A stretch of 64,000 nt of DNA from an uncultured Candidatus Berkelbacteria bacterium (GTDB lineage Bacteria; Patescibacteriota; UBA1384; UBA12157; JAENIV01), in NCBI GenBank assembly GCA_963698075.1, contig OY969116.1, positions 465,830 to 529,829 on the forward strand. The letters are read 5' to 3'. Below, piece after piece: positions 8,878-47,431 of this stretch. The stretch's first letter is position 1. The number at the start of each line of letters is the position of its first letter. The position numbers and the translations under genes were made by a program. The notes below the pieces were generated by a model. It was given only the letters and a program-made list of their open reading frames with translations, made no database searches and was not told the DNA's origin.

Positions 8878-9138
8878 CTATCTTTTTTCTTCAACCCCGC
8901 CTGCCGGCGAGGCAGGTTTTGGTTTTTTCTTCCAGACAATTAGCAAGCTTCCAGCTACAAACAAAACCATCGCCACCGCGCCCAAGATATCGGTCTTAAT
9001 CCCAACGGTTAGATTGGGAATTAAAAGAATAAAGGCGCCAGCAAAAATTAAAAAGCCCAATCCCATTTTGACTTGCCGAGTCCAAAAAGCGTAAAGACTA
9101 GCCAAAAGAGAAATAATCGCCAAAAAAGTTTGATACAT
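8878..9138 (-). CDS. Small membrane protein (86 aa, about 3 TM segments)
   Basis: Hydrophobic segments with a C-terminal KKKPKP tail. Confidence 0.35.
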   Translation of the reverse strand: MYQTFLAIISLLASLYAFWTRQVKMGLGFLIFAGAFILLIPNLTVGIKTDILGAVAMVLFVAGSLLIVWKKKPKPASPAGGVEEKR

Positions 9139-12589: not shown

Positions 12590-14404
12590 TTAACTAAAGA
12601 GTTTGTCAAACTCTGGACCTTCAATCGTTTCTTCCCGGACGAGTTTATCGGCGATTTTTTTTAAGATATTTTTCTTTTTCTTTAAAATTTCCGTCGCCAC
12701 TTTCTGGGCTTGCGAAATTATCGCTGAGACTTCTTTATCGATCTCCGCGGCGATTGTTTCGGAATAATTGCGTTCCTCGTGAATTTCCCGACCCAAAAAG
12801 ATTAATTCTTCTTTCTCACCTAAAACAACAGGGCCTAATTTCTCAGACATGCCATAAATCATTACCATATCTCGAGCCATTTTGGTGGCACGTCTGAGAT
12901 CATTTTGGGCGCCGGTCGTCACTTGTCCAAAAATTATTTTTTCCGCCGCAAAACCAGCTAACAATTGAGCGATGTCATCTTGAAATTTGGCTTTCGAATA
13001 GAGTTTACGATCTTCTTGAGGTAATGACCAAGTATATCCCAAAGCTACCCCGCGCGAGACCACCGAAACCTTGTGAATCGGGTCGCAATTGGGCAAAACT
13101 TTGCCGACGATTGAATGTCCGGCCTCGTGGAAAGCAGAAATTTCTTTTTCTTTGGGTGACATGAGGTGAGATTTTCTCTCGGGACCAAGCATGACTTTTT
13201 CAATTGAATCGGATAAATCTTTTTGTCTGATTTCTTTCTCGTTGTTGCGGGCTGCCAAAATTGCCGCTTCGTTCATAATATTGCGAAGATCGGCTCCCGA
13301 AAGACCGGCTGTTTGTTTGGCAATAATCCCTAAATCAGCTTCATGATCGAGAGGTTTTCCCCGTGAATGAATCTTCAAAATCGCCTCACGCTCATTAAGA
13401 TCGGGTAAGTCAATGACGATGCGCCGATCAAAACGGCCAGGTCTAAGTAGGGCCGGGTCTAAAACATCGGGACGATTGGTCGCCGCCACCACAATTACCC
13501 GTGTATCGGTCTCAAAACCGTCCATTTCCACCAAAATTTGATTTAAAGTTTGCTCTCTCTCGTCATGCGAACCGCCCAAACCCGCGCCCCGCTGACGGCC
13601 AATGGCATCGAGCTCATCGACAAAAAGAATCGCCGGAGCATTGCGTTTAGCTTTTTGGAATAAATCTCTTACTCTCGCGGCTCCCACCCCAACGAACATC
13701 TCGACAAATTCTGAAGCCGAGATCGAAAAGAAAGGCACGCCGGCTTCGCCAGCAACGGCTTTGGCCAAGAGAGTCTTGCCTGTCCCTGGCGGACCAACCA
13801 ACAGAACTCCCTTGGGAATTTCCGCCCCTAATTGTCTGAATTTACCAGGACTTCGTAAAAATTCCACTACTTCTTGAAGCTCTTGCTTTGGTTCAAGGAG
13901 ACCTGCCACATCGCGAAAGGTAATTTTTTTGGCACCAGGACCAAAAAGACGCGCCCGCGATTGACCAAAAGACATCGCCCTAATATTGCCAATTTGAGCT
14001 TGCCGAAGCATAAAGTACAAAAAACCGCCGATTAGAAGAAACGGTAAAACAATTGACAAGAATGTGGGCCAAAAAGTACTTTTATCAGGATTGTTGACGT
14101 CAATCGCCACTTTATCGGGAGTAATCCCATAATCTTTTAAAGTCGCCGAAGCTTCTTTATACCCTTGCTGCTCGGTACCATCTTTGAGTTTAGCCGTAAT
14201 TTGGTCTTGATTAACCGTAATCGAGGTCACCTTGCCATCCTGGACTTCTTGAGCAATCTCGGAAATCGGCACTTGCTGAGGTTTACTGCCAGATGGGGCC
14301 ACCAAAGAATAGATAATTAAGCCAACGACAAGGGCGACAATTACATAAAAAATATTACGAAAGCAATTTCCTCTATTCATAGAGATATATTTTAACCCAA
14401 CCAA
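12590..14404 (-). CDS. ftsH: ATP-dependent zinc metalloprotease FtsH
   Basis: Walker A GPPGTGKT, the AAA second region of homology, and the zinc-binding HEAGH motif, with N-terminal TM segments. Confidence 0.9.
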
Positions 14405-14426
14405 AATTTAATTTCAAGTGGCTAAT

Positions 14427-14616
14427 GGTGGCAGCGGCAAGATTCGAACTTGCGACCAACGGCTTATCTCTTCTTCGAATCAGAGATATTTTGCTTGGTG
14501 CCAGCGGCAGGATTTGAACCTGCGACCTAGGGCTTATGAGTCCCTCGCTCTACCCCTGAGCTACGCTGGCAAGCAAAATGGTGAGTCCGCTGCTCTACCA
14601 CTGAGCTACGCTGCCA
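14427..14616 (-). tRNA. Split CAU tRNA gene (5' exon about 14582-14616, 3' exon about 14427-14467 with encoded CCA) interrupted by a ~115-nt insert that contains a whole tRNA-Met gene
   Basis: 5' half: GGCAGCG-TA-GCTC-AGTGGTA-GAGC-A-GCGGA-CTCA. 3' half: (A)TAA-GCCGT-TGGTC-GCAAG-TTCGAAT-CTTGC-CGCTGCC-A-CCA. Joined, they give a perfect 76-nt cloverleaf with anticodon CAT. The insert is flanked by the 10-bp inverted repeat ATTTTGCTTG/CAAGCAAAAT. Confidence 0.5.
14496..14570 (-). tRNA. tRNA-Met (anticodon CAT), intact, nested inside the split tRNA
   Basis: Reverse complement: GCCAGCG-TA-GCTC-AGGGGTA-GAGC-G-AGGGA-CTCATAA-GCCCT-AGGTC-GCAGG-TTCAAAT-CCTGC-CGCTGGC-A-CCA. Confidence 0.8.
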
Positions 14617-14663
14617 CTTCTCAAAAAAAGGATATAATCCGTTTTAAAGGAAGGAATTTTGCT

Positions 14664-14738
14664 TGGTAGCGGGGGGCGGATTTGCACCGCCGATCTCGAG
14701 GTTATGAGCCTCGCGAGATACTACTTCTCCACCCCGCG
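14664..14738 (-). tRNA. Initiator-like tRNA-fMet (anticodon CAT) with atypical D and T loops
   Basis: Reverse complement: CGCGGGG-TG-GAGA-AGTAGTA-TCTC-G-CGAGG-CTCATAA-CCTCG-AGATC-GGCGG-TGCAAAT-CCGCC-CCCCGCT-A-CCA. It has a C1xU72 mismatch and an A11:U24 pair, both initiator hallmarks. The D loop lacks GG and the T loop is TGCAAAT. Confidence 0.65.
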
Positions 14739-14972
14739 TCGTAATATATCTTTGAGAAACTCCCTTCCGACACCACTCTTGAAATACTTCTCTTTTTTTC
14801 TAGCCTCTGTCCGCGACGAAAATTTCTCAGAATATATTAGTTTGTATGGTCTATATGCTTTTGTCGATCTATGATATCCATGCAGGTGTTCATGGAGCCT
14901 CCTCCTTATCGAATTAGTAATTCCCGTATATAAACGTTTATTATTATTCGCTAACACATAGACATAATACAT
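14721..14972 (-). CDS. GIY-YIG domain nuclease (YhbQ/URI-like, 83 aa)
   Basis: MYYVYVLANNNKRLYTGITNSIRRRLHEHLHG is the GIY-YIG motif. The last codons RGVEK-stop are encoded by the 5' end of the tRNA-fMet gene, an 18-nt overlap. Confidence 0.7.
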   Translation of the reverse strand: MYYVYVLANNNKRLYTGITNSIRRRLHEHLHGYHRSTKAYRPYKLIYSEKFSSRTEARKKEKYFKSGVGREFLKDILRRGVEK

Positions 14973-15003
14973 CTTAGTATACTAATGCATGCGCATTATA
15001 AGG

Positions 15004-15057
15004 CTCGCGAGACCTGCCTGCCGGCAGGCAGGTACTACTTCTCCACCCCGCGTCATC
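15004..15057 (-). pseudogene. Duplicated 5' fragment of the tRNA-fMet gene with a 22-nt palindromic insert
   Basis: CCACCCCGCG...ACTACTTCTCC repeats tRNA-fMet positions 1-20. Then comes the insert ACCTGCCTGCCGGCAGGCAGGT. Then an anticodon arm with loop CTTATAA and no 3' half. Confidence 0.5.
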
Positions 15058-15146
15058 TTTCACATCATACAACAAAAAACTCGAACTGGAGAGCTCATAA
15101 TTATTTTATCAGCAAATCGGCCAAAAATCAAGATATATGGAAATCT

Positions 15147-22244: not shown

Positions 22245-23003
22245 AGATTTATCCCACCCCTGGGGTGGGATTTCAATGGTTCAATCAATCAATAAAGCTT
22301 TGATTTTAGAAAGTTGACGCTGATAAGCGGCTCTATCAAGGACAAATTTGCGATAAGAGGATGGTTTTATCTCAAAAAGATCCGCGTATTCACAAAGCGC
22401 TTTTTCCTCTTGCCCCAAATATTCTTTATAGGATGAATAAGTCCATTCCTCGGGTTTTTTAACCAACGATGCCGAGACGGGATTGAGGTGGATGTAGCGC
22501 GTTAAATGCAGTAATTGTTCGTCGTTCTTGACTAAAATATTTTTAAACTTGGCTTCCCACAAAGGCCCTTTTCTTTTGTGTTTGGAATTAAAATATCGGG
22601 TATAACTATTTAAAATATTGCCAAAATATTTGGAGATCCCGTCGTCCTGTAATTGTTTTAAAATAAGATGAATATGGGTTGGCATAATGCAAAAAGCAAT
22701 TATCTCTACGAGGTCATCCCCATCTTTTGTAAGCGCTTCAAAATAATTATCAAAGCCCTGTTTGGCCACACCTTCAAGAATAATAAAATCGGAAAATTTT
22801 ATGTCCGTTTCCCTCTGATAAAATCTTAATAATTGACGCATCCTTTGATAATCTTGTTTATCATTAAAAATTTTGTATTCAGCGATACTTCTACTTAAAA
22901 CATGGTAAATTTCGTCATTAACTAAGGGTACTTTCCGCTTCATAATTTTATAATACATAAATCTTTAACCTTCTACAACCCACCCCAGGGGTGAGTTATG
23001 GAT
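22245..23003 (-). mobile_element. IS200/IS605-like minimal insertion sequence (Y1 HUH transposase flanked by subterminal hairpins)
   Basis: Hairpins ATCCCACC-CCTGG-GGTGGGAT (22252-22272) and CACCC-CAG-GGGTG (about 22977-22997) bracket a RAYT/TnpA-like gene. Confidence 0.55.
22281..22958 (-). CDS. Y1 HUH tyrosine transposase, IS200/RAYT-like (225 aa)
   Basis: HUH motif AFCIMPTHIHLIL and catalytic-Tyr motif TRYIHLNPV, as in IS200 TnpA and REP-associated tyrosine transposases. Confidence 0.7.
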   Translation of the reverse strand: MYYKIMKRKVPLVNDEIYHVLSRSIAEYKIFNDKQDYQRMRQLLRFYQRETDIKFSDFIILEGVAKQGFDNYFEALTKDGDDLVEIIAFCIMPTHIHLILKQLQDDGISKYFGNILNSYTRYFNSKHKRKGPLWEAKFKNILVKNDEQLLHLTRYIHLNPVSASLVKKPEEWTYSSYKEYLGQEEKALCEYADLFEIKPSSYRKFVLDRAAYQRQLSKIKALLID

Positions 23004-23081: not shown

Positions 23082-23197
23082 TGGGCACACCAGGACTCGA
23101 ACCTGGAACCAGTTGTGTCTAAAACCTTCACAAAAATGGGATCGGATGGATTCGAACTATCGGCAACCTCCTTATTTCAAAATGTGCAACTTAAAAA
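23082..23197 (-). pseudogene. tRNA 3'-half fragments (two T-arm/acceptor remnants)
   Basis: 23082-23136 reverse complement: TGGTT-CCAGG-TTCGAGT-CCTGG-TGTGCCC-A. 23137-23175 reverse complement: ATAA-GGAGG-TTGCC-GATAG-TTCGAAT-CCATC-CGATCCC-A. Neither fragment has a contiguous 5' half. Confidence 0.4.
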
Positions 23198-23269
23198 TGC
23201 GCACGCCTGGATTCGGACCAGGAACCGTCGCCTTATAAGAGCGATGCTCTGCCATTGAGCTACGTGCGC
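23198..23269 (-). tRNA. tRNA-Ile (anticodon TAT)
   Basis: Reverse complement: GCGCACG-TA-GCTC-AATGGCA-GAGC-A-TCGCT-CTTATAA-GGCGA-CGGTT-CCTGG-TCCGAAT-CCAGG-CGTGCGC-A. No encoded CCA. Flanked by the 12-bp inverted repeat TTTCAAAATGTG (23175-23186) / CACATTTTGAAA (23269-23280). Confidence 0.75.
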
Positions 23270-23294
23270 ACATTTTGAAAAATGTCTAACATTT

Positions 23295-23329
23295 TAAGAG
23301 AGGTGCTCTAACCACTGAGCTACATGCCC
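23295..23329 (-). pseudogene. tRNA 5'-half fragment (acceptor, D arm and anticodon stem up to the loop)
   Basis: Reverse complement: GGGCATG-TA-GCTC-AGTGGTTA-GAGC-A-CCTCT-CTTA, then the repeat-flanked tRNA-Ile follows. It pairs imperfectly with the fragment at 23137-23175 through GGAGG, giving a UAU anticodon loop. Confidence 0.4.
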
Positions 23330-25067: not shown

Positions 25068-28000
25068 TTACTTCTCTTCTTTCTTCAATTTAATCGTCGT
25101 GGAAACTAATGTCCTTTCCTTCTGTAAGTACATTAGGTGTGATTTGAAATCAATATAGCCAGGTTTGGCCGCCACCAAATAGTAAACACCAGGGGCCACC
25201 AAGAAACGGAAGCGGCCTTCGTTATCAGTGACATCAGTCTCGAGCAGGCGATTATTTTCTTTGAGATAAATTCGCACAATCACCATCCCTAAAGGATGAT
25301 TATAAGTGTCAGTCACGATGCCATAAGGCCTGGCCTTGAAGGTTCTTAGGTATTCTAAAATTCCCAAGAGAAGATAGAAGATAAGCGACAAGAGATAGAG
25401 GATGTTATATGAGATAAAGACCATCACCAAAGCAAAGATTAAACCAAGAACCAGCAGCGGCAGACGGAGCTTCTGAAGTAAGCGGTTTAGTCTCACAATC
25501 CATATCCAAAGATTGACCACAAAACCCGGCCCAACGTGAGGATCCAGGGGAATGTTATAAGCGACAGTCTGATCTTTGCCGGCGATTTTAAAGTCCCCGC
25601 CAGCGTAAATTTTCTCATAAAATGTGGATGATTTTTCTTTGGGAGGAAAGGTATAGCCAGACTTTGAAGCTTGGATATAGAACGTCCCTTCTCTGACCAG
25701 GAATCCGTAGCGTCCCTGATTATCAGTGACCGCTTGCTCGAGGACCCGGTTATATCGTTTATCAAAAATTCTCACCATGGCCAAGGGGATTGGTTGACCA
25801 CTTTGAGAGTTAAAAACCAAACCCCAAGCTTTACGACGTTTCCTGATACCCAAGAGTTGCAATAATTGAATAAACCAATAAGAGATTTGTGGTAAAAGCG
25901 TTCCCAGACTAAAGGCTGTATTAACTAAAATTGGCGTCAAAAGAACGGCGGTGGTGGTGGTGATTACTCCAGTATTTACTTTCGACATATTTTGAGCATT
26001 AGTGAAGAAGTCGCGGACCACACTGGGCACCGCCGGCTGAGCTAAAACCTCTATTTCCACTGTTGAAGAGGTCGAATAATCGGAAACTGTCAGTTTTTGT
26101 TTGCCGCCGGTGTTTAAGACAAAATCTTTACCCGCAAATTCATGGATACCGGCATCAACATCAGTAAAGGTGTACATATTTTTAGTATCAATGGAAAGAC
26201 TCGCATTTTTGTCAGAAGAACTGAAGTAAACCGCCTTATTATACCCCGTAACAATCTTCCCACCGGCGTCGGCGGCGCTAATGCGGACATTATTCGGGAA
26301 TTGTTGACCAGCATTGATGGTATCGGGTAAATTACCCATTACCAGGAAGGCGGCAATTCCACCTTGTTCGACAATTTGTTTTTCTTCGGGGGTTAAAGGT
26401 GCACGGGTTGAAATCGTCAAAATATTCGAAAAATCAGAATAGTTATTTCCGGCATCATAAGCCCGGACCTTGAAGCGGTAGATGGTGCTGGGAGTAAGAC
26501 TATTCAAGCTATAAGAAGTTACGGTCGTCGTGCCAATTAGGATATTAGTGTCGGCGTTATAAAGCTCATAGCCCGCTACGCCAACATTATCAGTTGAAGC
26601 ATCCCATGCCAAATCAATCGCCGTGGTTCCAATATCGGTCGCCCTGAGATTTGACGGCGCGGTTGGCGCCTCTGTGTCACCTGCATTAGGAGTTGGAGTT
26701 GGAATTGGTGTCGGCGGCGGGACAACCTCATTAAAGGTAATTTGCGGATGATCATCTAAAGTACAAAGACTGCCAGCTGTCGTATCGCGAACCGTTAGTG
26801 TTGAAGTATGGGGAGTTCCCGAAGTCACATAGGCTAAGATTTGGCCATTAGTATCGGTATTGGCTCGATTAAAGCTAATGCTGTCCCCCGCCTGATCAGA
26901 ACTGACTGAAACCGTGTGACCGGCAAGTTTATTGCCAGGGGAATCTTTTAAGGTGATGGTCACGGTTGAAGTACTGCCAACGTCTAGCGAGGTCGGTGCC
27001 GCTACCGCTGTCGAGGCCCCCGCCGAACAGGGCCCTGGGATAACCGTAAATTCGCTTGATGTGCCGCCGCTACCAGTGCCGGAAATCGTCTGGATGCCGA
27101 CGCTCTTCATCACCACTCCAGAATATGTCACTAAACCATTAGTCATTGATGAGGCAGCCGGCAAAGAAGCGGCCCCGTCAGATGAAGTCAAAGTGACCGT
27201 ATCGCTTGAACTATTGTCTCGATAGTTACTCGCATCCGCGGCATAAATCGGCAAATCAAAAGAGGTGCCGGCAGTAACCGTATCAGGAGTGTTATCAGTA
27301 AATGTTAATTTATAATCTCCGGCTTGAGAAATTGCCTGGCCGGGGAGTTTGAATAATAATGCCGTTCCCGTGGTGGTTGTCCAAGGGCCAAATTGGTCTG
27401 AAAGCGATGTTTCCACCCCTTCGGCGTTACGAGCTTTAGCTTTATATTTATAGGCCTTGCCATGGGTAAGACCGACATCAGTTGTTGAAAGCGTTGTTGG
27501 CCAAGTAGTGAAGGCTGAGTCTTGACCGCCGCCCCACTCCGGGGGATTGCCCGATGTCTCGGCAAACTGGATGCCTGAAGAACCGACACTAATATTGGTG
27601 AAGCTGTCGGTGATTGTTAAGGCAATCGAATTCGGCGTAATTAGCCCCACTGTAATCGTCGCCGGCGTCTCAATCCGGGTGTATTTCCAGGAGCTGTCAG
27701 AAGGCGAGGTCACATTCGGGGTGCTATTGCCGTCGCGGGCTCTGGCAATGAAAGTATATTTAGAGTTGGTTAAAAGGCCTGTGGTAGTAATGCCCGACGA
27801 GCTCCCCCAATCAGCATAAGTCTGCCAAGAGGCATTATCAAAAGTTTGATTGCAGACCGCTGCCCCGCCTGATGGCGCCCCGAGCCAGGTCGTGCCGTTA
27901 TCGCAAGAAATCGCATATTGAGTATTATTAGAAGTTGAGCCATCAGCATTGACACCGCCAGTGGGATTATTATTTTGGCTAACTGTGATTTGCAAACGGT

Positions 28001-31000
28001 CGGTTGAGGTGGAATCGCCAGATTTAAAAGCCAATGTCCCTTGGCCGGGCTGATTGGCCCAAGTTGATTTGGCCACCCCAGTAGTGAAAGCACTCCCTGA
28101 AGCTGGCTGGCCGCTGGCTGGTCGTCTTTTGATCTGATAAGTATAGGTGGTATTAACTGCCAAAGAGGTATTAGCTTTGCCTGTACCGCTCCCCCAAGTA
28201 GCATAGGTCTCCCAGTCCTCCCCTGTCTGAACCCCGCCAGTGGCAGCAACAACATATTTACCTAAAGTTTGATTGTAAACAGCAAAATTCATGTCTGGCG
28301 GATCAGAACCTGGATTAGTAATAATCTGCAAAGAAGTGGTTGAATTAATATTGACTGTCGGCAGCCCGGGTGCCGCCAATGAAGTGTAGACTGCATCGGA
28401 ACTGACATTATAAAGCGAACTGGCGCCATCGGTAACATAAGCTTGGGCTTGAAAACAATAAGGTAAATATTCTGCCAATCCGGTGTCGGGATTGGTCGCC
28501 GAAGTAGCGCCGCTCATGTCGGTGCAGTCAGCTGTTTGTTTATGCTGATAATTGTAATCTGATTTATTGGAAGAGTTGTCAGTAATGTCCCAAGTAATCT
28601 GTAATTCGTCCGCTGTCCCCCCTGTCACTGTCGGCCCATAGCCGGAGTAAACCGCGCGGATGCCGGTAGCATCGAGGGCGGTGTTGAAGATGGTGAAATC
28701 GGAGATGAGACCATTAAGGGGATAAGTTCCGTCAGCGCTTCCAACGTATAAAGAAGTATCTAATGTTCCTTGTATTATCCCAGTTGCCGGTGTTCCGACC
28801 TCTGCACCATTTAAATATAGCCTCAAATAACCAGAGGTAGTATCCCAAGATGCGGCAACATGTTGCCAGGTATTAGCAGACCAATCGACCGCGTAATCAA
28901 CCTGCTTATTACTGCCACCACCCCGATAATAAATCCGTAGCACATTCTCAGCTCTTTTCTGGAAACTAATAAGATTACTACTATCAACACTGACATCAGC
29001 AATCACATGTACAGCATTATCATTGCCGGCCCAATCTGTCTTAATCCAAGCCGAGAAAGTTCCCGCGGTCATACTAATATTACTGCTACTAGGATAGGTT
29101 AATACTTCCGCATTTCTTGTCAACTGCCCGGTGGCACCGGTTGGAATATAGGTAGTGGCAAAAGCGCCGAGTTCAGCTTGAGCGCAATCAACATAGACGG
29201 TTTGGCTCGCTTTAACATAAAAACCTAAATTCCAAGAGGCGGCGGTGCCGGTAAAAGTCGCAGTCAGACGATACCAGTCTGTTGAACCAACTTGAGTATA
29301 AGTAGTTGATAATCCGGAAGATGTCAGATCAGTCGCGGCATAAAGTTGAATTACCGTTGCATCAACTGTGCCGCCGCCAGATTTTTGCGCATAACCTGAA
29401 ATAGTATGAGTAGCCGCTGTCAGGGTTTGGGCTTGATAATATCTTTTATCAGCCGCGCCATTGGTCAGTCGCGAACTGTACGAAGGATTCAAATAAGGAC
29501 TTGAAACTCGGGCTGGTGTCAGACCGGATTCGGCGGTCCAGCCAGTTGGTGGAGCGCCGTTGCTAAAATTGCCATAAGTGATTAAGTTCGTCCTCGCCTC
29601 TTCAATCCTCACCCCCCCGCCGGGGTTTTGGGCAATATCGGCAGTCGAGACTTTTTCGATCCGGCCTTTCAAGTTGTTGCTATCAACACCAAGAATATGT
29701 GTCGTATCATTGATGTAACTGGCATTGGCGCCGGAATTGGTAATCGTTGCCGCTCCGGAACCCGCAGCTTTATCAGCATTAAGATCAATATTAGTGCCTT
29801 GCATTCTGAAAGTAATTTGATCATCTAAGCTGGTCGAAGGCTTTAGTTTATTAGCCAAAGTCTGACCCCTGGTAGTGTAAACATATCCCGAATCAGGCGC
29901 ACTGGTTTTGGCAGCGTGGACGCGGTAACAATAGCTGGTGTTGGCACTGGGACTACCATCGGTGTAATTAGGATCATTGCCGCCAATAGTGGTGGAAATA
30001 TCAGTCCAACTGCCTTCACAATTGCCTTGCCTTTCAAGATGGAGATTAGTGGCATCTGAAGAGTTAACTGTCCAGTTAACTCTTAATTGATTAATATCAG
30101 CATCACTGATATTGATATCACTCGGCGCGTAACCTTGATAAACTCCTTTGACTTTTTCGCCACTTAGGGCGGTGTTGAAGATGGTGTAGTCGGAAATGAG
30201 GGAATTAGCGTACCCCCGGCCTCCGCCAACATAAATTGTATTATTGGCCCAACCTGATGGTGGTGGATTAGAACCACTAATTGTCCCAACATTAGTACCA
30301 TTGATATAAACCTGACCAGTACTCCCAGTATCACCCCAAGTCAGAGCGACATGAGTCCATGTGTTTTGCGGAATAATGTCACTGGTAGTGGTCCATTGTG
30401 GATAGAGAGTATCTCCATTTGGCACCCGAAAATACCAAATATTGCTTGAATATTTAAATATTTGGATTCTTCTTGCATCTGGTGCGGAGGGTCCACCAAT
30501 TACTGTCAAGGCGTGAGTCCCGTTATCACCGACAGGAAATTCTGGATTCACCCAAAAAGCAACTGTCCCAGCGATTGGTGAAGCATTATTAGTGGCGGCG
30601 TAGTATAGGACTTCCGCATTTCTTGTCGCCGCCGCGGTGGTGGTGGGAATATAGGAGGTGGCATAAGCACCGAGTTCTTCTTGCTCAGCGTCCATATAGA
30701 CATAAACACTTTTAGTATAGACATATAAATCTAGATTGGAATGATCATGAGCGGCTGCCGCTGTAAGAGTAGCGGTGAGCTTGGTCCAACCAGTACCAAT
30801 AGCCACCGCACCAGTAGAACCCGCCTCGTTTCCATTAATACCAGTGGCCCAAACGGCAAAATTAACACTTGCCGAACTATCGGATTTGACCCAAACGCTA
30901 CCAGTGTACTTATCACCTGCATTAATGGTCATGGATTGACCTATGCTCAGCGAGCCCCATGTTCCGCCGCCAGTCAAAATGCCACGGCAGACTTTTGACC

Positions 31001-32363
31001 CATGGACTGGACTTGCGCCCGCGTAATCGTCGGCTGTCATTGTTCCACCGTCAGTAGCAACATAATGATAATCGGTAAAATTAGCCGATTCACAACTGGA
31101 ATCTGCCAGATTATTCGTCCTTGCCTCTTCAATCCTCACCGCCCCACCAGGGTCTCGGGCAATGCCCGAGGTTGTCACTCGTTCAACCCGGCCTTTGTCG
31201 GAATTCTCGACCGTAATGATATTGCCGGAGTCATTTGTATAGGTGGCACTGCCGCCGGCAGAGGTGATGGTCGCCGCGGCCGAGCCGCCTGATTTATCGG
31301 CAGTTAAATTGGTGGTTGTCCCTTGAACCCGTAGAGTGGTGGCGTCATTTAAAGTTGTCGAAGGCAAAAGTTTGGTCGCCAAAGTCTGCCCCCGGGCAAC
31401 ATTGGAATAATCTGAATAACCTCCGTTATAAGCTCGAAGTCGAAAACAATAACTGGTATTGCTAGTTAAACTACCAACATTAGTGGTTGCCACATCGCCA
31501 GTGGCTGATTCCGCGCCATATGAACCGGTGCAGCCAGCGGATTTCGAAATATAATAATTGGTGGCGCCGCTGGCTTTCGTCCAGTTGACCGTTAACTGCG
31601 AGTCTGTGGCGCCACTGCCGATATAAACCGCGGTCGGCGGCAAAAGCGGATTATAATCAACATGGGCGTAAACCTGGGTAACATAGGCATAATTAACGGC
31701 AGCATTGGCTTGCACTCCAATCTGTAAATTATCAACATCAGACCAAGTCCAGGCAACGCTCGTCTTTGGATTGGTCGCCCAAGTATCAGAGTAAGTCGCA
31801 TAAGAAGTGGTTGGACTTTGCCAAGCACCATAGTAAGCAGTGCCGCCGGTTTTTAAAGCTGATCTTACCTGAACGCCGGCGGTAGAACCGCGCTTGGCGA
31901 CATAATAAACCGAAACCGAATTGATAATGCCGAACTGGGAAGAATTGGTAATATTATATAAATCACCCGCACTGGCTGTGCCAGTTGAAACATAAGAAGT
32001 ATCTGCGTCATTAGTGGTTGTCACGCACCAGTTGGCTGAACCGCAGCCAATGCTGCCAGTTGGTGTCCATTGAGTACTATCGCCGGCGGCATTGGGGGCA
32101 AAATCAACTGTTGCGGCAAAAACCTTTCCAGGTTGAGCAAAATTGATCCGATAAAAAAGCGTCCCAATAAAGATCAAAAAAACGATCAAGAAAAAAGTAT
32201 GCACCCATTTTGAATATTTAAAACTTGACCATTGGTAATACCAATGAAACCGTTGCCTTAAAACATCGTGCAACGGCAAAAGAGCCGGCACAGTTGTCCG
32301 GGTGCTTTTTTGGAGCCGGATAATTTCTTTATCGAGGGATTCAAGCTCCTCGTCCGGTATCAT
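25068..32363 (-). CDS. Giant membrane-anchored surface protein (2431 aa) with LamG-like domains, FN3 repeats and C-terminal TM segments plus CarboxypepD_reg-like domains
   Basis: N-terminal cytoplasmic stretch and TM anchor. Three LamG-type C-terminal signatures (LISDYTIFNTALSGEKV, LISDFTIFNTALDATGIRAVY, and a third). FN3-like Y...Y..Y..V.A repeats. C-terminal hydrophobic helices flanking VTDNQGRYGFLV and VTDNEGRFRFLV modules. Confidence 0.65.
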   Translation of the reverse strand: MIPDEELESLDKEIIRLQKSTRTTVPALLPLHDVLRQRFHWYYQWSSFKYSKWVHTFFLIVFLIFIGTLFYRINFAQPGKVFAATVDFAPNAAGDSTQWTPTGSIGCGSANWCVTTTNDADTSYVSTGTASAGDLYNITNSSQFGIINSVSVYYVAKRGSTAGVQVRSALKTGGTAYYGAWQSPTTSYATYSDTWATNPKTSVAWTWSDVDNLQIGVQANAAVNYAYVTQVYAHVDYNPLLPPTAVYIGSGATDSQLTVNWTKASGATNYYISKSAGCTGSYGAESATGDVATTNVGSLTSNTSYCFRLRAYNGGYSDYSNVARGQTLATKLLPSTTLNDATTLRVQGTTTNLTADKSGGSAAATITSAGGSATYTNDSGNIITVENSDKGRVERVTTSGIARDPGGAVRIEEARTNNLADSSCESANFTDYHYVATDGGTMTADDYAGASPVHGSKVCRGILTGGGTWGSLSIGQSMTINAGDKYTGSVWVKSDSSASVNFAVWATGINGNEAGSTGAVAIGTGWTKLTATLTAAAAHDHSNLDLYVYTKSVYVYMDAEQEELGAYATSYIPTTTAAATRNAEVLYYAATNNASPIAGTVAFWVNPEFPVGDNGTHALTVIGGPSAPDARRIQIFKYSSNIWYFRVPNGDTLYPQWTTTSDIIPQNTWTHVALTWGDTGSTGQVYINGTNVGTISGSNPPPSGWANNTIYVGGGRGYANSLISDYTIFNTALSGEKVKGVYQGYAPSDINISDADINQLRVNWTVNSSDATNLHLERQGNCEGSWTDISTTIGGNDPNYTDGSPSANTSYCYRVHAAKTSAPDSGYVYTTRGQTLANKLKPSTSLDDQITFRMQGTNIDLNADKAAGSGAATITNSGANASYINDTTHILGVDSNNLKGRIEKVSTADIAQNPGGGVRIEEARTNLITYGNFSNGAPPTGWTAESGLTPARVSSPYLNPSYSSRLTNGAADKRYYQAQTLTAATHTISGYAQKSGGGTVDATVIQLYAATDLTSSGLSTTYTQVGSTDWYRLTATFTGTAASWNLGFYVKASQTVYVDCAQAELGAFATTYIPTGATGQLTRNAEVLTYPSSSNISMTAGTFSAWIKTDWAGNDNAVHVIADVSVDSSNLISFQKRAENVLRIYYRGGGSNKQVDYAVDWSANTWQHVAASWDTTSGYLRLYLNGAEVGTPATGIIQGTLDTSLYVGSADGTYPLNGLISDFTIFNTALDATGIRAVYSGYGPTVTGGTADELQITWDITDNSSNKSDYNYQHKQTADCTDMSGATSATNPDTGLAEYLPYCFQAQAYVTDGASSLYNVSSDAVYTSLAAPGLPTVNINSTTSLQIITNPGSDPPDMNFAVYNQTLGKYVVAATGGVQTGEDWETYATWGSGTGKANTSLAVNTTYTYQIKRRPASGQPASGSAFTTGVAKSTWANQPGQGTLAFKSGDSTSTDRLQITVSQNNNPTGGVNADGSTSNNTQYAISCDNGTTWLGAPSGGAAVCNQTFDNASWQTYADWGSSSGITTTGLLTNSKYTFIARARDGNSTPNVTSPSDSSWKYTRIETPATITVGLITPNSIALTITDSFTNISVGSSGIQFAETSGNPPEWGGGQDSAFTTWPTTLSTTDVGLTHGKAYKYKAKARNAEGVETSLSDQFGPWTTTTGTALLFKLPGQAISQAGDYKLTFTDNTPDTVTAGTSFDLPIYAADASNYRDNSSSDTVTLTSSDGAASLPAASSMTNGLVTYSGVVMKSVGIQTISGTGSGGTSSEFTVIPGPCSAGASTAVAAPTSLDVGSTSTVTITLKDSPGNKLAGHTVSVSSDQAGDSISFNRANTDTNGQILAYVTSGTPHTSTLTVRDTTAGSLCTLDDHPQITFNEVVPPPTPIPTPTPNAGDTEAPTAPSNLRATDIGTTAIDLAWDASTDNVGVAGYELYNADTNILIGTTTVTSYSLNSLTPSTIYRFKVRAYDAGNNYSDFSNILTISTRAPLTPEEKQIVEQGGIAAFLVMGNLPDTINAGQQFPNNVRISAADAGGKIVTGYNKAVYFSSSDKNASLSIDTKNMYTFTDVDAGIHEFAGKDFVLNTGGKQKLTVSDYSTSSTVEIEVLAQPAVPSVVRDFFTNAQNMSKVNTGVITTTTAVLLTPILVNTAFSLGTLLPQISYWFIQLLQLLGIRKRRKAWGLVFNSQSGQPIPLAMVRIFDKRYNRVLEQAVTDNQGRYGFLVREGTFYIQASKSGYTFPPKEKSSTFYEKIYAGGDFKIAGKDQTVAYNIPLDPHVGPGFVVNLWIWIVRLNRLLQKLRLPLLVLGLIFALVMVFISYNILYLLSLIFYLLLGILEYLRTFKARPYGIVTDTYNHPLGMVIVRIYLKENNRLLETDVTDNEGRFRFLVAPGVYYLVAAKPGYIDFKSHLMYLQKERTLVSTTIKLKKEEK

Positions 32364-32509
32364 TTTCTCCCCTCCTCGTTAGATAACTCAAAAACTTCCT
32401 TTTCGCTCGAGAAAAAAGAAGCCTTATTCTATAACCATCATACAGAAAATATCAATCAACTGTCAAGAATTTTGGAAATATTGCCTACAATATATATAAT
32501 AGTATAGCC

Positions 32510-34396: not shown

Positions 34397-35456
34397 CTTT
34401 AAGATAGAAATCCTCTTGAATCTTGGCCGCTTCATCCCACGAGGGCAAAGGTTTATAAATCATTTTTTTTGATATTTCTGAAGCGTTCTCCCAGGCATAG
34501 ATAATTTTTTTTGCCAAATCTTCGATATCAAAAGACTTGGCAAAAACAGCTTGTTTTTGACTTTGTTCCACTAAAGCAGAATTGTCAAAAGTAACCATGG
34601 CTTTTTTTAATAACAAGCATTCATTGGCGACAATGCATCCCGATTCATAGCGGGATGGTACCACGACTATTCTTGCCTCTTGAAGATATCTAATTTTCTC
34701 TTTCGAGACTATTTGGCCAATTAATTTTACATATTTTTCAAGGTTTAATACTTTGATTAATTTTTCGATTTTTTCTTTGTCTTTTCCTTCCCCGGCAACG
34801 AGCAAAGGCATTTTAGCTTTATTGGGAATCTTTGAATAAGCTTTAATCAAGAGATCGAGGCCTTTTTGATGAATATCTAAGCGGCCAATAAAAAGGATAT
34901 AATTTTTGGTTTGAATGTTTTTTATCGAACGGGGAAATTCAGACAAAGTTTGATTATTCAAAGTTAAAATCTTTAAGCCAGTTTGTCTGTCTCTTAGAAC
35001 ATTTTTTTGAATCGCTTGCGTCGGGAAAATGAAATTTTTGTATAATCGCAAACCGATTTCATAGGGTATAAAGAAGGGCAATTTATATTTGGATGACATT
35101 TCCCAGGCAAAAGCCCAGTCCACCATCGCAATCACTGGCTTTTGGGTAAAACGCGGGCTCCAGACCGGGCCAAAAGGCGGGGTAAAATTTTCTACTAATA
35201 GGTCAAAATTATTCTTTTTAACTATTTCAGGGACGTGCCAGAAAAAACTTAAAAAATTCCAGGGGAATTTTTTTTGACCAATTCTTAAATAGCTAATCTC
35301 TTCAATTATCTCATTTTTAGCCCCTGGATAATTGCCGGTAACAACCATAACCTGATGTTTTTTAGCCAATCGCCGATTAATTTCAAAAGTTCTAACTGCC
35401 TGGCCTCCGCCTAAAGGATTTTTTAAGTCATCAAAGTCAAGATGTAATATTTTCAT
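34368..35456 (-). CDS. GT4-family glycosyltransferase
   Basis: GT-B fold. C-terminal Glycos_transf_1 region with an E..G motif (SRYESGCIVANE). Confidence 0.65.
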   Translation of the reverse strand: MKILHLDFDDLKNPLGGGQAVRTFEINRRLAKKHQVMVVTGNYPGAKNEIIEEISYLRIGQKKFPWNFLSFFWHVPEIVKKNNFDLLVENFTPPFGPVWSPRFTQKPVIAMVDWAFAWEMSSKYKLPFFIPYEIGLRLYKNFIFPTQAIQKNVLRDRQTGLKILTLNNQTLSEFPRSIKNIQTKNYILFIGRLDIHQKGLDLLIKAYSKIPNKAKMPLLVAGEGKDKEKIEKLIKVLNLEKYVKLIGQIVSKEKIRYLQEARIVVVPSRYESGCIVANECLLLKKAMVTFDNSALVEQSQKQAVFAKSFDIEDLAKKIIYAWENASEISKKMIYKPLPSWDEAAKIQEDFYLKVIGQETAVR

Positions 35457-35486
35457 TTAGATTCTCATCATTGCTAATTAGCAAGG

Positions 35487-40485: not shown

Positions 40486-40493
40486 ATTCTTCT

Positions 40494-42890: not shown

Positions 42891-42897
42891 CTTAATT

Positions 42898-43803: not shown

Positions 43804-43849
43804 TTTTTATTGTTTTATTATTCTCTTTTTCATTTCTCTGATATAATTC

Positions 43850-45367: not shown

Positions 45368-45450
45368 AGGCCTTTTTTGCCAGCAAAATTTACTACTTGA
45401 AAAAAACTTCTCCGTAAGGAGTAATACCTCGAGGCTTGCTTCGAAGAAAG
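45342..45450. repeat. Left arm of inverted repeats bracketing the GT2 gene at 45492-46214
   Basis: AAAAAACTTCTCCGTAAGGAGTAATACCTCGAGGCTTGCTTCGAAG (45399-45446) is the near reverse complement of 46247-46297. An additional CCCGAAGC-TT-GCTTCGAGG palindrome lies at 45344-45362. Confidence 0.5.
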
Positions 45451-45491
45451 TTTATTCATCCAAGAAAAACTGGCAATCAATCCCGGCCTTT

Positions 45492-46214: not shown

Positions 46215-46224
46215 TCTGTAGAAT

Positions 46225-46330
46225 AAACTATTGTTTGAAAATAAACTACTCCCGAAGCAGGCTTCGAGGTATGACTCCTTTCGGAGAAGTTTTTTTCAAA
46301 CAGGTTGAAAATAAACTACTCTCCAGTAAA
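46225..46330. repeat. Right arm of the inverted repeats, plus tandem GAAAATAAACTACTC motifs
   Basis: CTACTCCCGAAGCAGGCTTCGAGGTATGACTCCTTTCGGAGAAGTTTTTTTC (46241-46292). GAAAATAAACTACTC occurs at 46233 and 46307. Confidence 0.5.
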
Positions 46331-46369
46331 ATCCTCGACAAATTCATTGATATCTGGTAGAATCAACAT

Positions 46370-46927: not shown

Positions 46928-46932
46928 ACCAA

Positions 46933-47428: not shown

Positions 47429-47431
47429 CGC

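What the first reader, a model, noticed from the sequence alone, without database searches (positions are those of the whole stretch)
14427..14616. A complete tRNA-Met gene lies inside the anticodon loop of a second CAU tRNA gene, bracketed by a perfect 10-bp inverted repeat
On the minus strand, a 5' half at 14582-14616 and a 3' half with CCA at 14427-14467 are separated by about 115 nt. Joined at CTCA|TAA, they give a flawless 76-nt cloverleaf with anticodon CAU. The spliced product would read GGCAGCG-UA-GCUC-AGUGGUA-GAGC-A-GCGGA-CUCAUAA-GCCGU-UGGUC-GCAAG-UUCGAAU-CUUGC-CGCUGCC-A-CCA. The intervening sequence holds an intact, paralogous tRNA-Met(CAU) gene at 14496-14570. That gene is flanked exactly by ATTTTGCTTG (14488-14497) and CAAGCAAAAT (14570-14579), which would extend its acceptor stem into a ~10-bp helix. 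A further hairpin, ATCTCT-N10-AGAGAT, lies between the insert and the 3' half. This is either a tRNA 'intron' carrying another tRNA, which would imply RNase P/Z release of the inner tRNA plus ligation or splicing of the outer halves, or a recent nested duplication that disrupted a gene. The same architecture recurs at 23.2 kb with different repeat sequences. That argues for a mechanism, not an accident.
Basis: seen in the sequence. Interest (0 to 1): 0.8.

Follow-up and report, generated by a model that had tools for sequence, protein, structure and literature searches.

The report
tRNA gene nested inside tRNA gene
In this ultra-small (Patescibacteria/CPR) bacterium a complete methionine-tRNA gene sits exactly inside the anticodon loop of a second one, and the same Russian-doll design recurs in over a hundred related metagenomic contigs, most likely because small cassettes carrying a spare tRNA keep invading and replacing the resident tRNA gene.

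Summary
On the minus strand, 14615-14582 plus 14466-14426 join into a 75-nt tRNA-Met(CAU). They are split between nucleotides 35 and 36 by a 115-nt insert that holds an intact paralogous tRNA-Met (14570-14496).

The window comes from a Berkelbacteria-like CPR bacterium. This is not an accident. A generic pattern for "5' half followed too soon by a second tRNA" found at least 120 metagenome contigs. They hold 104 distinct nests (Ile-UAU, Met-CAU, Ile-GAU, Val), and the cargo almost always shares the outer gene's anticodon.

Relatives with 84-92% identical FtsH show every state at this locus:
- an uninterrupted outer-type gene
- reciprocal nests
- three-level dolls
- lone 5' or 3' relics

Outer copies often carry anticodon-loop lesions and extra cargo-less palindromes in the D or T loops.

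My best reading (about 0.6) is recurrent DNA-level insertion of non-autonomous, tRNA-carrying hairpin cassettes at an A|T step of the anticodon loop. The cargo replaces the gene it breaks. The window's outer gene would be a very young pseudogene.

A true intron with exon ligation is not excluded (about 0.15). The 23.2-kb locus is a decayed multi-level nest, not a clean second copy. I found no published description.

The parts
14582..14615 (-). Outer tRNA-Met(CAU) 'type A', 5' half (positions 1-35): GGCAGCG..GCGGA CTCA
   Evidence: It pairs 7/7 with the acceptor strand at 14426-14466.
14571..14581 (-). Insert leader s1 (CCATTTTGCTT). The left arm of the leader-trailer helix, ATTTTGCTTG, runs one base into the inner tRNA (14579-14570).
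   Evidence: The same 'CCA + helix arm' start is seen in L087, L196, L203, L205 and L121.
14496..14570 (-). Inner, intact tRNA-Met(CAU) 'type B' with encoded CCA. This is the presumed working gene.
   Evidence: ARAGORN. Rfam tRNA 70.4 bits.
14467..14495 (-). Insert trailer s2. It holds the right helix arm (CAAGCAAAAT, overlapping the CCA), then ATATCT, then a hairpin that abuts the 3' junction.
   Evidence: A conserved '(T)ATTTC-hairpin-GAAG|TAA' end occurs in relatives L196, L203, L205, L207, L208 and L210.
14426..14466 (-). Outer tRNA-Met 'type A', 3' half (positions 36-76, CCA encoded).
   Evidence: Uninterrupted orthologues exist in L002 and L201.
14664..14738 (-). Initiator-type tRNA(CAU), 48 nt upstream of the nest. 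Its trailer, CCAAGCAAAAT, is identical to the inner tRNA's trailer.
14721..14972 (-). 83-aa ORF consisting only of a GIY-YIG nuclease domain. It lies between an initiator relic and the real initiator tRNA.
   Evidence: Pfam GIY-YIG, 56.7 bits. Homologous small GIY-YIG ORFs lie next to tRNA-Met nests in L004, L008, L202, L087 and L104.
14996..15052 (-). Relic of an initiator tRNA. It holds the first 20 nt (identical to the real gene), then a perfect 20-nt palindrome CCTGCCTGCCGGCAGGCAGG in the D loop (15013-15032), then a degenerate anticodon arm.
23295..23329 (-). Locus 2: outer tRNA-Ile(UAU) 5' half, ending CCTCT CTTA.
23198..23270 (-). Locus 2: inner intact tRNA-Ile(UAU). It is flanked by s1 (23294-23271) and s2 (23197-23175), which form a 13-bp inverted repeat TTTCAAAATGTGC/GCACATTTTGAAA.
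23137..23174 (-). Locus 2: 3' half of a different tRNA-Ile (acceptor strand CGATCCC). It mismatches the outer 5' half, so it is a relic of an intermediate level.
   Evidence: two acceptor mismatches and one T-stem mismatch. A GGGATCG-type tRNA-Ile exists as the inner gene in L101.
23082..23110 (-). Locus 2: T arm plus acceptor 3' strand that pairs 7/7 with the outer 5' half. This is the displaced remainder of the outermost gene.

Best explanation
The window shows one fresh round of a recurrent DNA-level process in Patescibacteria.

**The cassette.** It is short (about 100-225 nt) and non-autonomous. It consists of a leader, a complete tRNA gene and a trailer. Leader and trailer pair into a helix. 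Two scaffold types occur:
- the trailer ends in a hairpin flush with the junction (the window's type)
- a GC-rich palindrome closes the whole insert (CC[CT]GCC[TC]GCC...GGC[GA]GGCAGG)

**The insertion.** The cassette inserts precisely, in one orientation and without target duplication. The site is an A|T step in the anticodon loop of a tRNA gene with the same anticodon: 35/36 in Met and Ile, 37/38 in Val.

**The outcome.** The resident gene is split and becomes a pseudogene, and the cargo takes over decoding. New cassettes then invade the cargo, giving Russian dolls. Recombination between the directly repeated halves trims them to '5' half + gene' or 'gene + 3' half'. Dead outer copies collect cargo-less palindromes in their D and T loops and point lesions in the loop.

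**In the window.** The type A gene was hit by a type B cassette so recently that its halves are still perfect.

**Shown:** the architecture, its recurrence, the precision of the junctions, the scaffold families, presence/absence polymorphism, serial and reciprocal nesting, and decay.

**Inferred:**
- The outer RNA is not rejoined.
- Only insertions that bring a matching spare survive in genomes with single-copy tRNAs.
- A trans-acting DNA enzyme does the work. My favoured candidate is a break made by the small GIY-YIG or LAGLIDADG-like nucleases that sit beside these loci, with the split halves serving as homology arms for spread. A structure-specific single-strand DNA transposase or recombinase acting on the exposed loops of the folded tRNA gene is the alternative.
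For: **Recurrence**
- 119 of 123 matches have an ARAGORN tRNA starting 7-33 nt after the 5' half.
- There are 104 distinct nests. In 86 the cargo shares anticodon positions 34-35 with the outer gene. 45 of those 86 have a contiguous 3' half with at least 16 of 17 stem pairs.

**Cassette as a unit**
- Inner tRNA plus leader and trailer are conserved while the outer gene and its flanks are unrelated: L090/L189, L119/L122, L175/L179.
- One scaffold family occurs with Ile-UAU, Ile-GAU, Met and Val cargos, each in the matching host gene.
- The leader-trailer helix has a median of 9 contiguous Watson-Crick pairs against 4.7 in shuffles, with unrelated sequences.

**Turnover at this very locus (CAP-[tRNAs]-FtsH)**
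- L201 (FtsH 92%) and L002 (78%) have type A uninterrupted.
- The window and L001 have type A as the outer gene, with different cassettes.
- L207 has type A as the inner gene.
- L196 has the reciprocal nest, B[A''].
- L205/L206 have B[A''[B]].
- L202, L208, L209 and L210 have relics and chimeric halves.

**Serial replacement elsewhere**
- The same tRNA-Met allele is outer in some genomes and inner in others, forming chains P0<-P1<-P2<-P5.

**Decay of outer copies**
- C32 deleted: L203.
- C34 to T or A: L093, L112, L177, L178, L208.
- T36 to G, A or C: L087, L121, L197, L003, L167.
- CTCA changed to CTAC: L202.
- Extra palindromes in the T or D loops: L107, L126, L111, L001, L004.
- In the orthologous pair L087/L196 the inner tRNA has 9 substitutions, all compensatory. 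The outer has 6, including a killed anticodon and a broken 2-71 pair.

**Palindrome behaves as a repeat**
- The same palindrome occurs without cargo in the window, as terminator-like hairpins (8895-8916 and 32810-32831) and in the D loop of the initiator relic.

**Nuclease genes**
- Small nuclease genes adjoin the nests, including a GIY-YIG ORF in the window.

**No need for interrupted genes**
- In 95 complete Patescibacteria genomes, standard tools miss only Asn and Asp tRNAs. Interrupted genes are therefore not needed to complete the tRNA set (PMC13011429).
Against: - No enzyme is identified. The RAYT-like gene beside locus 2 has its own different palindromes and no homologue near other nests. 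The GIY-YIG and LAGLIDADG-like ORFs are absent from most contigs and their activity is untested.
- Outer halves are better preserved than a long-lived pseudogene should be. There are many perfect cloverleaves, even in three-level dolls.
- In the syntenic pair L086/L142 the outer gene differs by three compensatory pairs, while the inner tRNA is identical and the spacers are about 22% diverged. That could mean selection on the outer fold.
- Lesions concentrate in the anticodon loop rather than the stems.
- Inner and outer genes often share identical D and anticodon arms but differ compensatorily in acceptor and T stems. This needs gene conversion, transfer between relatives or selection to explain.
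- 'Inner always intact' is partly built in, because inner genes were defined by ARAGORN detection.
- The survey pattern only sees tRNAs with a TAGCTCAG D arm and A35.
Confidence: 0.6

Rival explanations
1. True tRNA intron. The whole unit is transcribed. RNase P and 3' processing release the inner tRNA. An unknown endonuclease trims leader and trailer at the helix or hairpin bases. An RtcB-type ligase then joins the outer halves, so one gene yields two tRNAs.
For: - The window's halves join into a proper cloverleaf with a correct 7-nt CUCAUAA loop.
- The precursor's minimum-energy fold keeps all outer and inner helices.
- About three quarters of well-preserved nests restore the cargo's anticodon on simple joining.
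- The scaffold helices and hairpins show covariation.
- Extra inserts sit in D, anticodon and T loops with perfect exons, as in multi-intron archaeal tRNAs.
- There are compensatory differences in the outer gene of the syntenic pair L086/L142.
- Patescibacteria do splice group I introns at the same 35/36 site (PMC13011429; an Rfam group I hit in the initiator tRNA of L209).
Against: - No known bacterial protein-dependent tRNA splicing pathway exists (own knowledge).
- There is no bulge-helix-bulge motif, and both junctions lie at one end of a helix junction.
- There is no ribozyme or group I signal in the insert.
- No ligase or endonuclease is encoded among the window ORFs scanned.
- Roughly a third of Met nests have an outer anticodon loop that cannot give CAU.
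- The cargo always duplicates the outer gene's anticodon, so the outer gene adds no decoding capacity.
- Turnover is fast and uninterrupted alleles exist in the closest relatives.
Confidence: 0.15
2. There is no dedicated insertion mechanism. The nests are by-products of local duplication, unequal crossing-over and gene conversion among tandem paralogous tRNA genes. Breaks at hairpin-forming anticodon arms may stimulate this.
For: - Extra stacked 5' halves that reuse the same leader occur in L205, L159 and L085.
- Chimeric halves occur in L087 and L210.
- '5' half + gene' and 'gene + 3' half' forms (L004, L007, L209) are what direct-repeat recombination predicts.
- In L003 and L100 the inner gene is nearly identical to the outer.
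Against: - Recombination between direct repeats deletes or stacks sequence. It does not place a complete gene precisely between nucleotides 35 and 36.
- The junction is the same A|T step in hundreds of independent cases, without loss or gain of bases.
- Scaffold sequences are conserved across unrelated host genes, tRNA species and contigs.
- Heterotypic nests (A in B, B in A, C in A) have unrelated leaders.
Confidence: 0.12
3. The outer halves are kept for a non-decoding role. They could serve as homology arms that let the cassette home into intact alleles, or as a tRNA-like frame that guides folding and processing of the inner precursor. Their stems would then be selected but their anticodon would not.
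For: - Stems are often perfect while positions 32, 34 and 36 are mutated.
- Outer exons in L087/L196 are less diverged (about 8%) than the spacers (about 25%).
- Inner and outer acceptor and T stems are usually different, which would prevent mispairing in a common transcript.
Against: - Many nests have lost one half altogether or carry chimeric, non-pairing halves.
- The D arm is near-universal and may be maintained by gene conversion.
- There is no direct evidence for homing.
Confidence: 0.1
4. Assembly artefact: similar tRNA genes were mis-joined by short-read assemblers.
For: The tRNA paralogues share 18-34-nt identical stretches, which can confuse assemblers.
Against: - Identical three-level nests appear in independent ENA and JGI assemblies (L205/L206), and identical nests in two Logan runs (L203/L204).
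- Nests occur in NCBI, ENA, JGI and Logan records.
- Junctions are precise and the inserts contain unique, structured, conserved non-tRNA sequence.
Confidence: 0.01

Closest known systems
Group I introns at position 35/36 of Patescibacteria tRNA genes (Nakagawa et al. 2026, PMC13011429)
   Same: - Same phylum and the same unusual insertion point in the anticodon loop.
- Patchy presence among relatives.
- Homing-endonuclease genes are sometimes associated.
- A relative of this very locus has a group I intron in the neighbouring initiator tRNA (L209, Rfam 66 bits).
   Different: - The insert here is 115 nt, of which 75 nt are a tRNA.
- There is no group I core.
- The exon and intron terminal bases do not fit the group I rules.
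- The insert carries a working copy of the interrupted gene.
Archaeal bulge-helix-bulge tRNA introns, transposing introns of Thermoproteales, and split or tri-split tRNAs (reviewed in PMC4090602 and PMC4390854; summary in PMC10714607)
   Same: - Short protein-spliced inserts at several positions (D, anticodon and T loops).
- Multiple inserts per gene.
- The inserts behave as mobile elements.
- Leader-trailer helices hold the halves together.
   Different: - The organism is a bacterium.
- There is no bulge-helix-bulge geometry at the junctions.
- No archaeal intron is known to contain a complete tRNA of the same anticodon (own knowledge).
- Many outer genes here are visibly dead.
Integrative elements and phages that insert into tRNA genes and carry a copy of the displaced 3' part (own knowledge: Williams 2002 survey of tRNA integration sites)
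   Same: - The element targets a tRNA gene, often at the anticodon loop.
- It repairs the damage it causes by bringing tRNA sequence with it.
- It leaves displaced tRNA fragments, as in L007, L066 and L068.
   Different: - Those elements are kilobases long and encode an integrase.
- They duplicate a core (att) sequence at both ends and restore the same gene as a chimera.
- Here there is no core repeat and no integrase inside the insert. A whole independent gene is supplied and the host gene is left split.
Free-standing homing endonucleases that drive inheritance of a linked resistant allele, for example the GIY-YIG SegB in the phage T4 tRNA cluster (own knowledge); conceptually, synthetic 'cleave-and-rescue' drives
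   Same: - Small GIY-YIG or LAGLIDADG-like genes lie next to the tRNA genes concerned.
- The resident allele is replaced by an incoming one.
- Relatives show patchy distribution.
   Different: - Nuclease activity and target are untested.
- The nuclease gene is outside the 115-nt insert and absent from most contigs.
- The replacement copy is placed inside the target rather than substituted for it.
REP/REPIN palindromes mobilised by RAYT (IS200-like Y1) transposases, and IS200/IS605 'peel-and-paste' elements (own knowledge)
   Same: - Hairpin-ended, non-autonomous elements with no target duplication.
- Insertion into single-strand-prone sites.
- The same palindrome is used as a terminator-like hairpin elsewhere in the window.
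- A RAYT-like gene lies next to locus 2.
   Different: - REPINs carry no genes.
- The window's RAYT is flanked by a different palindrome (CACCCC[AT]GGGGTG).
- No conserved target tetranucleotide is seen beyond ...A|T.

Membership tests
Group I intron | Match to the conserved catalytic core (Rfam RF00028) | tested here: not met
   There is no Intron_gpI hit in the window at gathering score, nor at E<=10 in 14350-15100. The same search does find one in relative L209.
Group I intron | Size and helices P1-P9 (about 200 nt or more) | tested here: not met
   The insert is 115 nt. 75 nt of it fold as a canonical tRNA and the rest as one helix plus one hairpin.
Group I intron | 5' exon ends in U (U.G in P1) and the intron ends in G | tested here: not met
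   The 5' exon ends ...CUCA (or CUC). The insert ends ...AGAGA (or AGAG). Locus 2 ends ...GAAA.
Archaeal/eukaryal BHB intron | Bulge-helix-bulge at the two splice sites | tested here: not met
   In the predicted fold both junctions open into one three-way junction at the top of the anticodon stem. There are no 3-nt bulges separated by 4 bp. In the palindrome family both junctions sit at the same base-pair step.
Archaeal/eukaryal BHB intron | Splicing endonuclease and RNA ligase encoded by the organism | not testable with these tools
   Neither appears among the window ORFs scanned. Only 64 kb of the 929-kb contig is accessible.
tRNA-targeting integrative element | Direct repeat of the att core or tRNA 3' part at both ends | tested here: not met
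   The left junction is CTCA|CCAT and the right junction is GAGA|TAAG. They share at most one base.
tRNA-targeting integrative element | Integrase encoded inside the element | tested here: not met
   The 115-nt insert has no ORF. The Xer-like genes near some nests are part of a conserved Xer-DivIC-tRNA synteny.
DDE transposon / MITE | Terminal inverted repeats plus target-site duplication | tested here: not met
   Inverted repeats are present, but no duplication occurs. Simple joining restores a 7-nt loop.
IS200/IS605-type or REP/RAYT element | No duplication, hairpin ends, strand-specific insertion 3' of a fixed short target | tested here: inconclusive
   The element has no duplication, has hairpins at or near its ends, and inserts in a single orientation. 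The only shared target feature is ...A|T in a loop: CTCA, CTTA, CTGA, TTCA and CACA all occur.
IS200/IS605-type or REP/RAYT element | Cognate Y1 transposase recognising the element's hairpin | tested here: inconclusive
   A RAYT-like ORF lies at 22281-22958 (75 bits against a cut-off of 80). It is flanked by different palindromes and has no homologues in the 200+ other loci.
Free-standing homing-endonuclease cassette | Nuclease gene adjacent to the gene it targets | tested here: met
   A GIY-YIG ORF lies at 14721-14972 in the window. GIY-YIG or LAGLIDADG-like ORFs abut nests in L086, L087, L104, L142, L191, L202, L208 and L209.
Free-standing homing-endonuclease cassette | Nuclease cleaves the cassette-free allele at the insertion site | not testable with these tools
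   This needs a biochemical or genetic assay.
Split / permuted tRNA genes | Halves at separate loci or in 3'-5' order, joined in trans | tested here: not met
   The halves are collinear, on one strand and 115 nt apart.

The most novel reading that the evidence does not exclude
The nests are genuine bacterial tRNA introns of a new class. The precursor would be cut by RNase P/Z, releasing the inner tRNA, and then by a structure-specific nuclease at the scaffold helix or hairpin. A ligase would rejoin the outer exons. Patescibacteria would then possess a protein-dependent tRNA splicing pathway and make two tRNAs from one nested gene. The decayed copies would simply be tolerated because the cargo is redundant.
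Probability: 0.15. Interest if true: 0.95.

Novelty: new variant of a known kind. Interest (0 to 1): 0.8.

Why it matters
If the invasion-and-replacement reading is right, this is a natural selfish element that breaks an essential gene and carries the spare that makes the break survivable. It differs from both known ways mobile DNA lives in tRNA genes, which are splicing out as an intron or rebuilding the gene from a carried fragment. It would explain several things:
- How single-copy tRNA genes in minimal CPR genomes turn over so fast.
- Why these loci are littered with tRNA halves.
- How split and intron-bearing tRNA genes can arise from ordinary ones, which bears on the long debate over the origin of tRNA introns and split tRNAs.

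It also has practical consequences. Standard tRNA finders see only the innermost gene. Intron-aware modes call chimeras. Half-genes can be mistaken for split tRNAs.

If the minority reading is right, it would reveal the first protein-dependent tRNA splicing in Bacteria and a job for bacterial RtcB-type ligases.

Tried and rejected
- **Phage tRNA cluster.** Rejected. The neighbours are FtsH, MurJ, YkuD, LepA, sigma-70 and the CCA-adding enzyme. FtsH relatives are Berkelbacteria/Patescibacteria MAGs.
- **Group I intron or small ribozyme in the insert.** No Rfam hit, even at E<=10.
- **Bulge-helix-bulge intron.** The geometry is absent.
- **Integrase-type att duplication, or transposon target duplication.** Absent.
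- **The RAYT-like gene beside locus 2 as the driver.** It has its own different flanking palindromes and no homologues near other nests.
- **Compensatory differences between the window's and L001's outer genes as proof of function.** Rejected, because the two inserts are unrelated, so the insertions are independent and the differences may predate them.
- **Partitioned substitution counts on similar nest pairs, to test for selection on outer exons.** The result is mixed. L087/L196 shows decay. L086/L142 shows compensatory change. Several pairs are clearly the same cassette in different hosts.
- **ARAGORN intron mode as a nest detector.** It calls chimeras between inner and outer halves, so I used a custom parser instead.
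- **Exact-protein look-up of the window's FtsH with the TTG start.** It found nothing. The annotated 596-aa form is P0001.
- **Literature.** Seven full-text searches found no description of nested tRNA genes in bacteria.
Full report
**What is in the window**

All coordinates in this section are on the minus strand. The region 14738-14426 holds, in order:
- An initiator-type tRNA(CAU), 14738-14664.
- 48 nt of spacer.
- The first 34 nt of a tRNA-Met, ending GCGGA-CUCA (14615-14582).
- A 115-nt insert (14581-14467).
- The remaining 41 nt of that tRNA, UAA-GCCGU...CGCUGCC-A-CCA (14466-14426).

The insert consists of:
- An 11-nt leader.
- A complete, canonical tRNA-Met(CAU), 14570-14496 (ARAGORN; Rfam 70.4 bits).
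- A 29-nt trailer.

With the correct ones, ARAGORN calls the joined product tRNA-Met(cat), 75 nt. Its intron mode finds the same gene with a 115-nt intron. The 10-bp inverted repeat and the hairpin next to the 3' junction are exact. The minimum-energy fold of the 190-nt unit is the nested structure. The single A31.G39 mismatch is shared with the inner gene and with orthologues.

A pattern for 'a 5' half followed too early by another tRNA start' matches twice in the window, against 0.00 expected from shuffles.

**The organism**

The neighbours are FtsH, MurJ, an L,D-transpeptidase, LepA, the CCA-adding enzyme, sigma-70 and many glycosyltransferases. The nearest FtsH genes belong to Candidatus Berkelbacteria and other Patescibacteria MAGs. 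The window's own FtsH lies on a 929-kb contig.

**The second locus**

At 23.3 kb there is an outer tRNA-Ile(UAU) 5' half (23329-23295) and an intact inner tRNA-Ile(UAU) (23270-23198), flanked by a 13-bp inverted repeat. Two 3' pieces follow:
- A 3' half with a foreign acceptor strand (23174-23137).
- Further on, the T arm and acceptor strand that pair with the outer 5' half (23110-23082).

This is a decayed multi-level nest, not a clean replica of the first locus.

**Relatives at the same locus**

The tRNAs lie between a CAP-domain gene and FtsH in all close relatives. The states differ in almost every genome.

| Locus | FtsH identity | State |
|---|---|---|
| L201 | 92% | Outer-type ('A') gene uninterrupted |
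| L002 | 78% | Type A uninterrupted |
| L001 | 84% | Type A split at the same CUCA\|UAA point by an unrelated cassette with a third tRNA-Met type, plus a 20-nt hairpin in the D arm |
| L207 | 87% | Type A is the inner gene of another outer gene |
| L196 | about 90% (same lineage as L205/L206) | Reciprocal of the window: type B outer, type A-like inner |
| L205/L206 | 90% (independent ENA and JGI assemblies) | Three complete levels, B[A''[B]], plus a further 5' relic |
| L203/L204 | 90% | Nest whose outer loop has lost C32 |
| L202, L208, L209, L210 | 84-90% | Stacked 5' relics, D- and T-loop inserts, C34-to-T changes, and halves that no longer belong together |
| L004, L209 | 69%, 84% | '5' half + gene' |
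| L007 | 64% | 'Gene + 3' half', with the repeat starting exactly at U36 |

The last two rows are what recombination between directly repeated halves predicts. The locus therefore turns over faster than 10% FtsH divergence.

**How widespread it is**

- 119 of 123 matches have a tRNA starting right after the 5' half.
- After removing duplicates there are 104 nests.
- 86 share anticodon positions 34-35 between inner and outer: 29 Ile-UAU, 27 Met, 11 Ile-GAU and 19 Val.
- Of those 86, 45 have a contiguous 3' half with at least 16 of 17 stem pairs. 7 have a 3' half broken by a further insert. 26 have none.
- Mismatched pairs almost never have a 3' half.

FtsH genes on these contigs are closest to those of labelled Patescibacteria MAGs. 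Labelled examples include Berkelbacteria, other Patescibacteria and Moranbacteria-like MAGs. The pattern can only see tRNAs with this D arm and A35, so the true range is unknown.

**Anatomy of the inserts**

Junctions are precise. They fall at A35|U36 in Met and Ile, and at A37|U38 in one Val family. Nothing is duplicated or lost in about three quarters of the well-preserved nests.

Two scaffold designs recur:
- A GC-rich closing palindrome flush with both junctions (A|CC[CT]GCC[TC]GCC ... GGC[GA]GGCAGG|U). It is found with Ile-UAU, Ile-GAU, Met and Val cargos.
- The window's design: a leader that pairs with the trailer next to the tRNA, followed by a hairpin that ends one base before the 3' junction. 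In the Berkelbacteria group this reads |CCA..., ...(T)ATTTC-hairpin-GAAG|UAA.

The leader-trailer helix has a median of 9 contiguous Watson-Crick pairs against 4.7 in shuffles, with unrelated sequences, so its structure is conserved.

The palindrome also occurs without cargo:
- In the window, as two identical terminator-like hairpins (8895-8916 and 32810-32831).
- In the D loop of an initiator-tRNA relic (15013-15032).
- In the D or T loops of many outer genes elsewhere.

**Is the cassette a unit?**

In several pairs the inner tRNA and scaffold are 85-100% identical, while the outer gene and the flanks are unrelated (L090/L189, L119/L122, L175/L179). That is the pattern of a mobile unit in different hosts.

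In one CPR clade with conserved Xer-DivIC-tRNA-TrpRS-FtsH synteny, the same tRNA-Met allele is outer in some contigs and inner in others. The alleles form chains of successive replacement.

**Is the outer gene alive?**

*Against:*
- Outer Met genes have lost C32 (L203).
- Others have changed C34 (L093, L112, L177, L178, L208).
- Others have changed U36 (L087, L121, L197, L003, L167).
- One has a scrambled CUCA (L202).
- One Val family cannot be joined into a 7-nt loop at all.
- In the orthologous pair L087/L196 the inner gene changed nine times, always compensatorily. The outer gene changed six times, including a killed anticodon and a broken pair.
- The cargo always repeats the outer gene's anticodon.
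- Complete Patescibacteria genomes do not need interrupted genes to complete their tRNA sets (PMC13011429).
- The scanned window ORFs encode no ligase or splicing endonuclease.

*For:*
- The window's halves are perfect.
- Many nests, even triple ones, are perfect.
- Lesions cluster in the loop rather than the stems.
- The syntenic pair L086/L142 differs by compensatory pairs in the outer gene.

These points may reflect youth, independent insertions into already diverged alleles, gene conversion, or selection on the halves as homology arms. They keep the splicing reading alive at roughly 0.15.

**What drives insertion**

This is unknown.
- The RAYT-like gene beside locus 2 is flanked by its own different palindromes and is not found near other nests.
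- Small GIY-YIG ORFs and 220-aa LAGLIDADG-like ORFs lie directly beside many nests.
- The window itself has an 83-aa GIY-YIG ORF (14972-14721) wedged between an initiator relic and the real initiator. This suggests that the initiator gene was once replaced in the same way.
- In L209 the initiator carries a group I intron at the same CUCA|UAA site. This is the site reported as typical for Patescibacteria.

I therefore favour nuclease-initiated spread, with the split halves as homology arms. A structure-specific single-strand DNA enzyme acting on the exposed loops of the folded tRNA gene is the alternative. Neither is shown.

**Comparison with known systems**

The insert fails the tests for:
- a group I intron
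- a BHB intron
- an integrase-borne element
- a duplication-making transposon

It is compatible with, but not demonstrably a member of, the IS200/REP-type hairpin elements or the free-standing homing-nuclease cassettes.

Seven full-text searches found no description of tRNA genes nested in tRNA genes in bacteria. I rate it a new variant of a known kind: mobile DNA that lives in tRNA genes and neutralises its own damage. The new solution here is to bring a whole spare gene.

**Verdict**
- 'A mechanism, not an accident' is confirmed.
- The most likely mechanism is serial DNA invasion and replacement (0.6).
- A true intron remains possible (0.15).
- Interest: 0.8.

Noticed in passing
window 14996-15052 (-), palindrome 15013-15032: A relic of the initiator tRNA. 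Its first 20 nt are identical to the real gene at 14738. A perfect 20-nt palindrome, CCTGCCTGCCGGCAGGCAGG, sits in the D loop. The anticodon arm is degenerate (CTTATAA).
   Followed up: partly
window 14721-14972 (-): An 83-aa ORF that is only a GIY-YIG nuclease domain. Its last 18 nt overlap the start of the initiator tRNA. Similar ORFs recur next to tRNA-Met genes in relatives.
   Followed up: partly
window 8895-8916 (+) and 32810-32831 (-): Two identical 22-nt GC-rich hairpins (CCCCGCCTGCCGGCGAGGCAGG), each followed by a T run. They look like terminators and share the arm sequence of the palindrome that closes many nests elsewhere.
   Followed up: partly
window 22255-22993, ORF 22281-22958 (-): A 225-aa REP-associated tyrosine transposase-like gene (NCBIfam 75 bits, just under the cut-off of 80). 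It is flanked on both sides by the palindrome CACCCC[AT]GGGGTG and lies immediately downstream of the tRNA-Ile nest.
   Followed up: partly
window 23198-23270 (-); many loci: The working AUA decoder appears to be tRNA-Ile(UAU), which is rare in bacteria. It is the commonest nested species in the survey. Whether these genomes lack tilS and a lysidine-type tRNA-Ile2 could not be checked.
   Followed up: no
window 23198-23270 (-); L001, L115, L126, L202 inner or outer genes: The T loops read TCCGAAT/TCCGAGT (C at position 55 instead of the universal U/pseudouridine) in otherwise canonical tRNAs.
   Followed up: no
L208 260-490 and L209 258-469: The initiator tRNA of two relatives (FtsH 84-85%) carries a roughly 210-230-nt insert at CTCA|TAA. 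In L209 it is a group I intron (Rfam 66 bits). It is followed by a free-standing 226-aa LAGLIDADG-like ORF.
   Followed up: partly
proteins P0046 and P0060: FtsH homologues of about 1000 aa with intein and LAGLIDADG domains (PF14890, PF14528). These are intein-containing FtsH genes in relatives.
   Followed up: no
window 25068-32363 (-): A 2431-aa ORF in a slightly GC-richer stretch (0.46-0.48). It was not characterised.
   Followed up: no
window 32000-48000: A low-GC block (0.31-0.37, against about 0.43 elsewhere). It is full of glycosyltransferases, radical-SAM/SPASM, methyltransferase, deacetylase and flippase genes, and is probably a cell-surface glycan island.
   Followed up: no
L050 5250-5550, L061 5700-6110, L095: tRNA-Val genes of Moranbacteria-like CPR carry a different D-loop insert with the ends G[CT]TTGCCCCGTCAC...GTGACGGGGTGAAG. 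They also form three-level nests that reuse the same flanks (TTCACCCCGTTAGAT...ATCTAACGGGGCA). Their outer loops cannot be restored to 7 nt.
   Followed up: partly
L066 2632-2651, L068 2834-2854: 20-21-nt duplicates of the 3' end of tRNA-Leu(UAG) lie about 160 nt downstream of the gene. This is the classical footprint of an integrase-type element rather than a nest.
   Followed up: no
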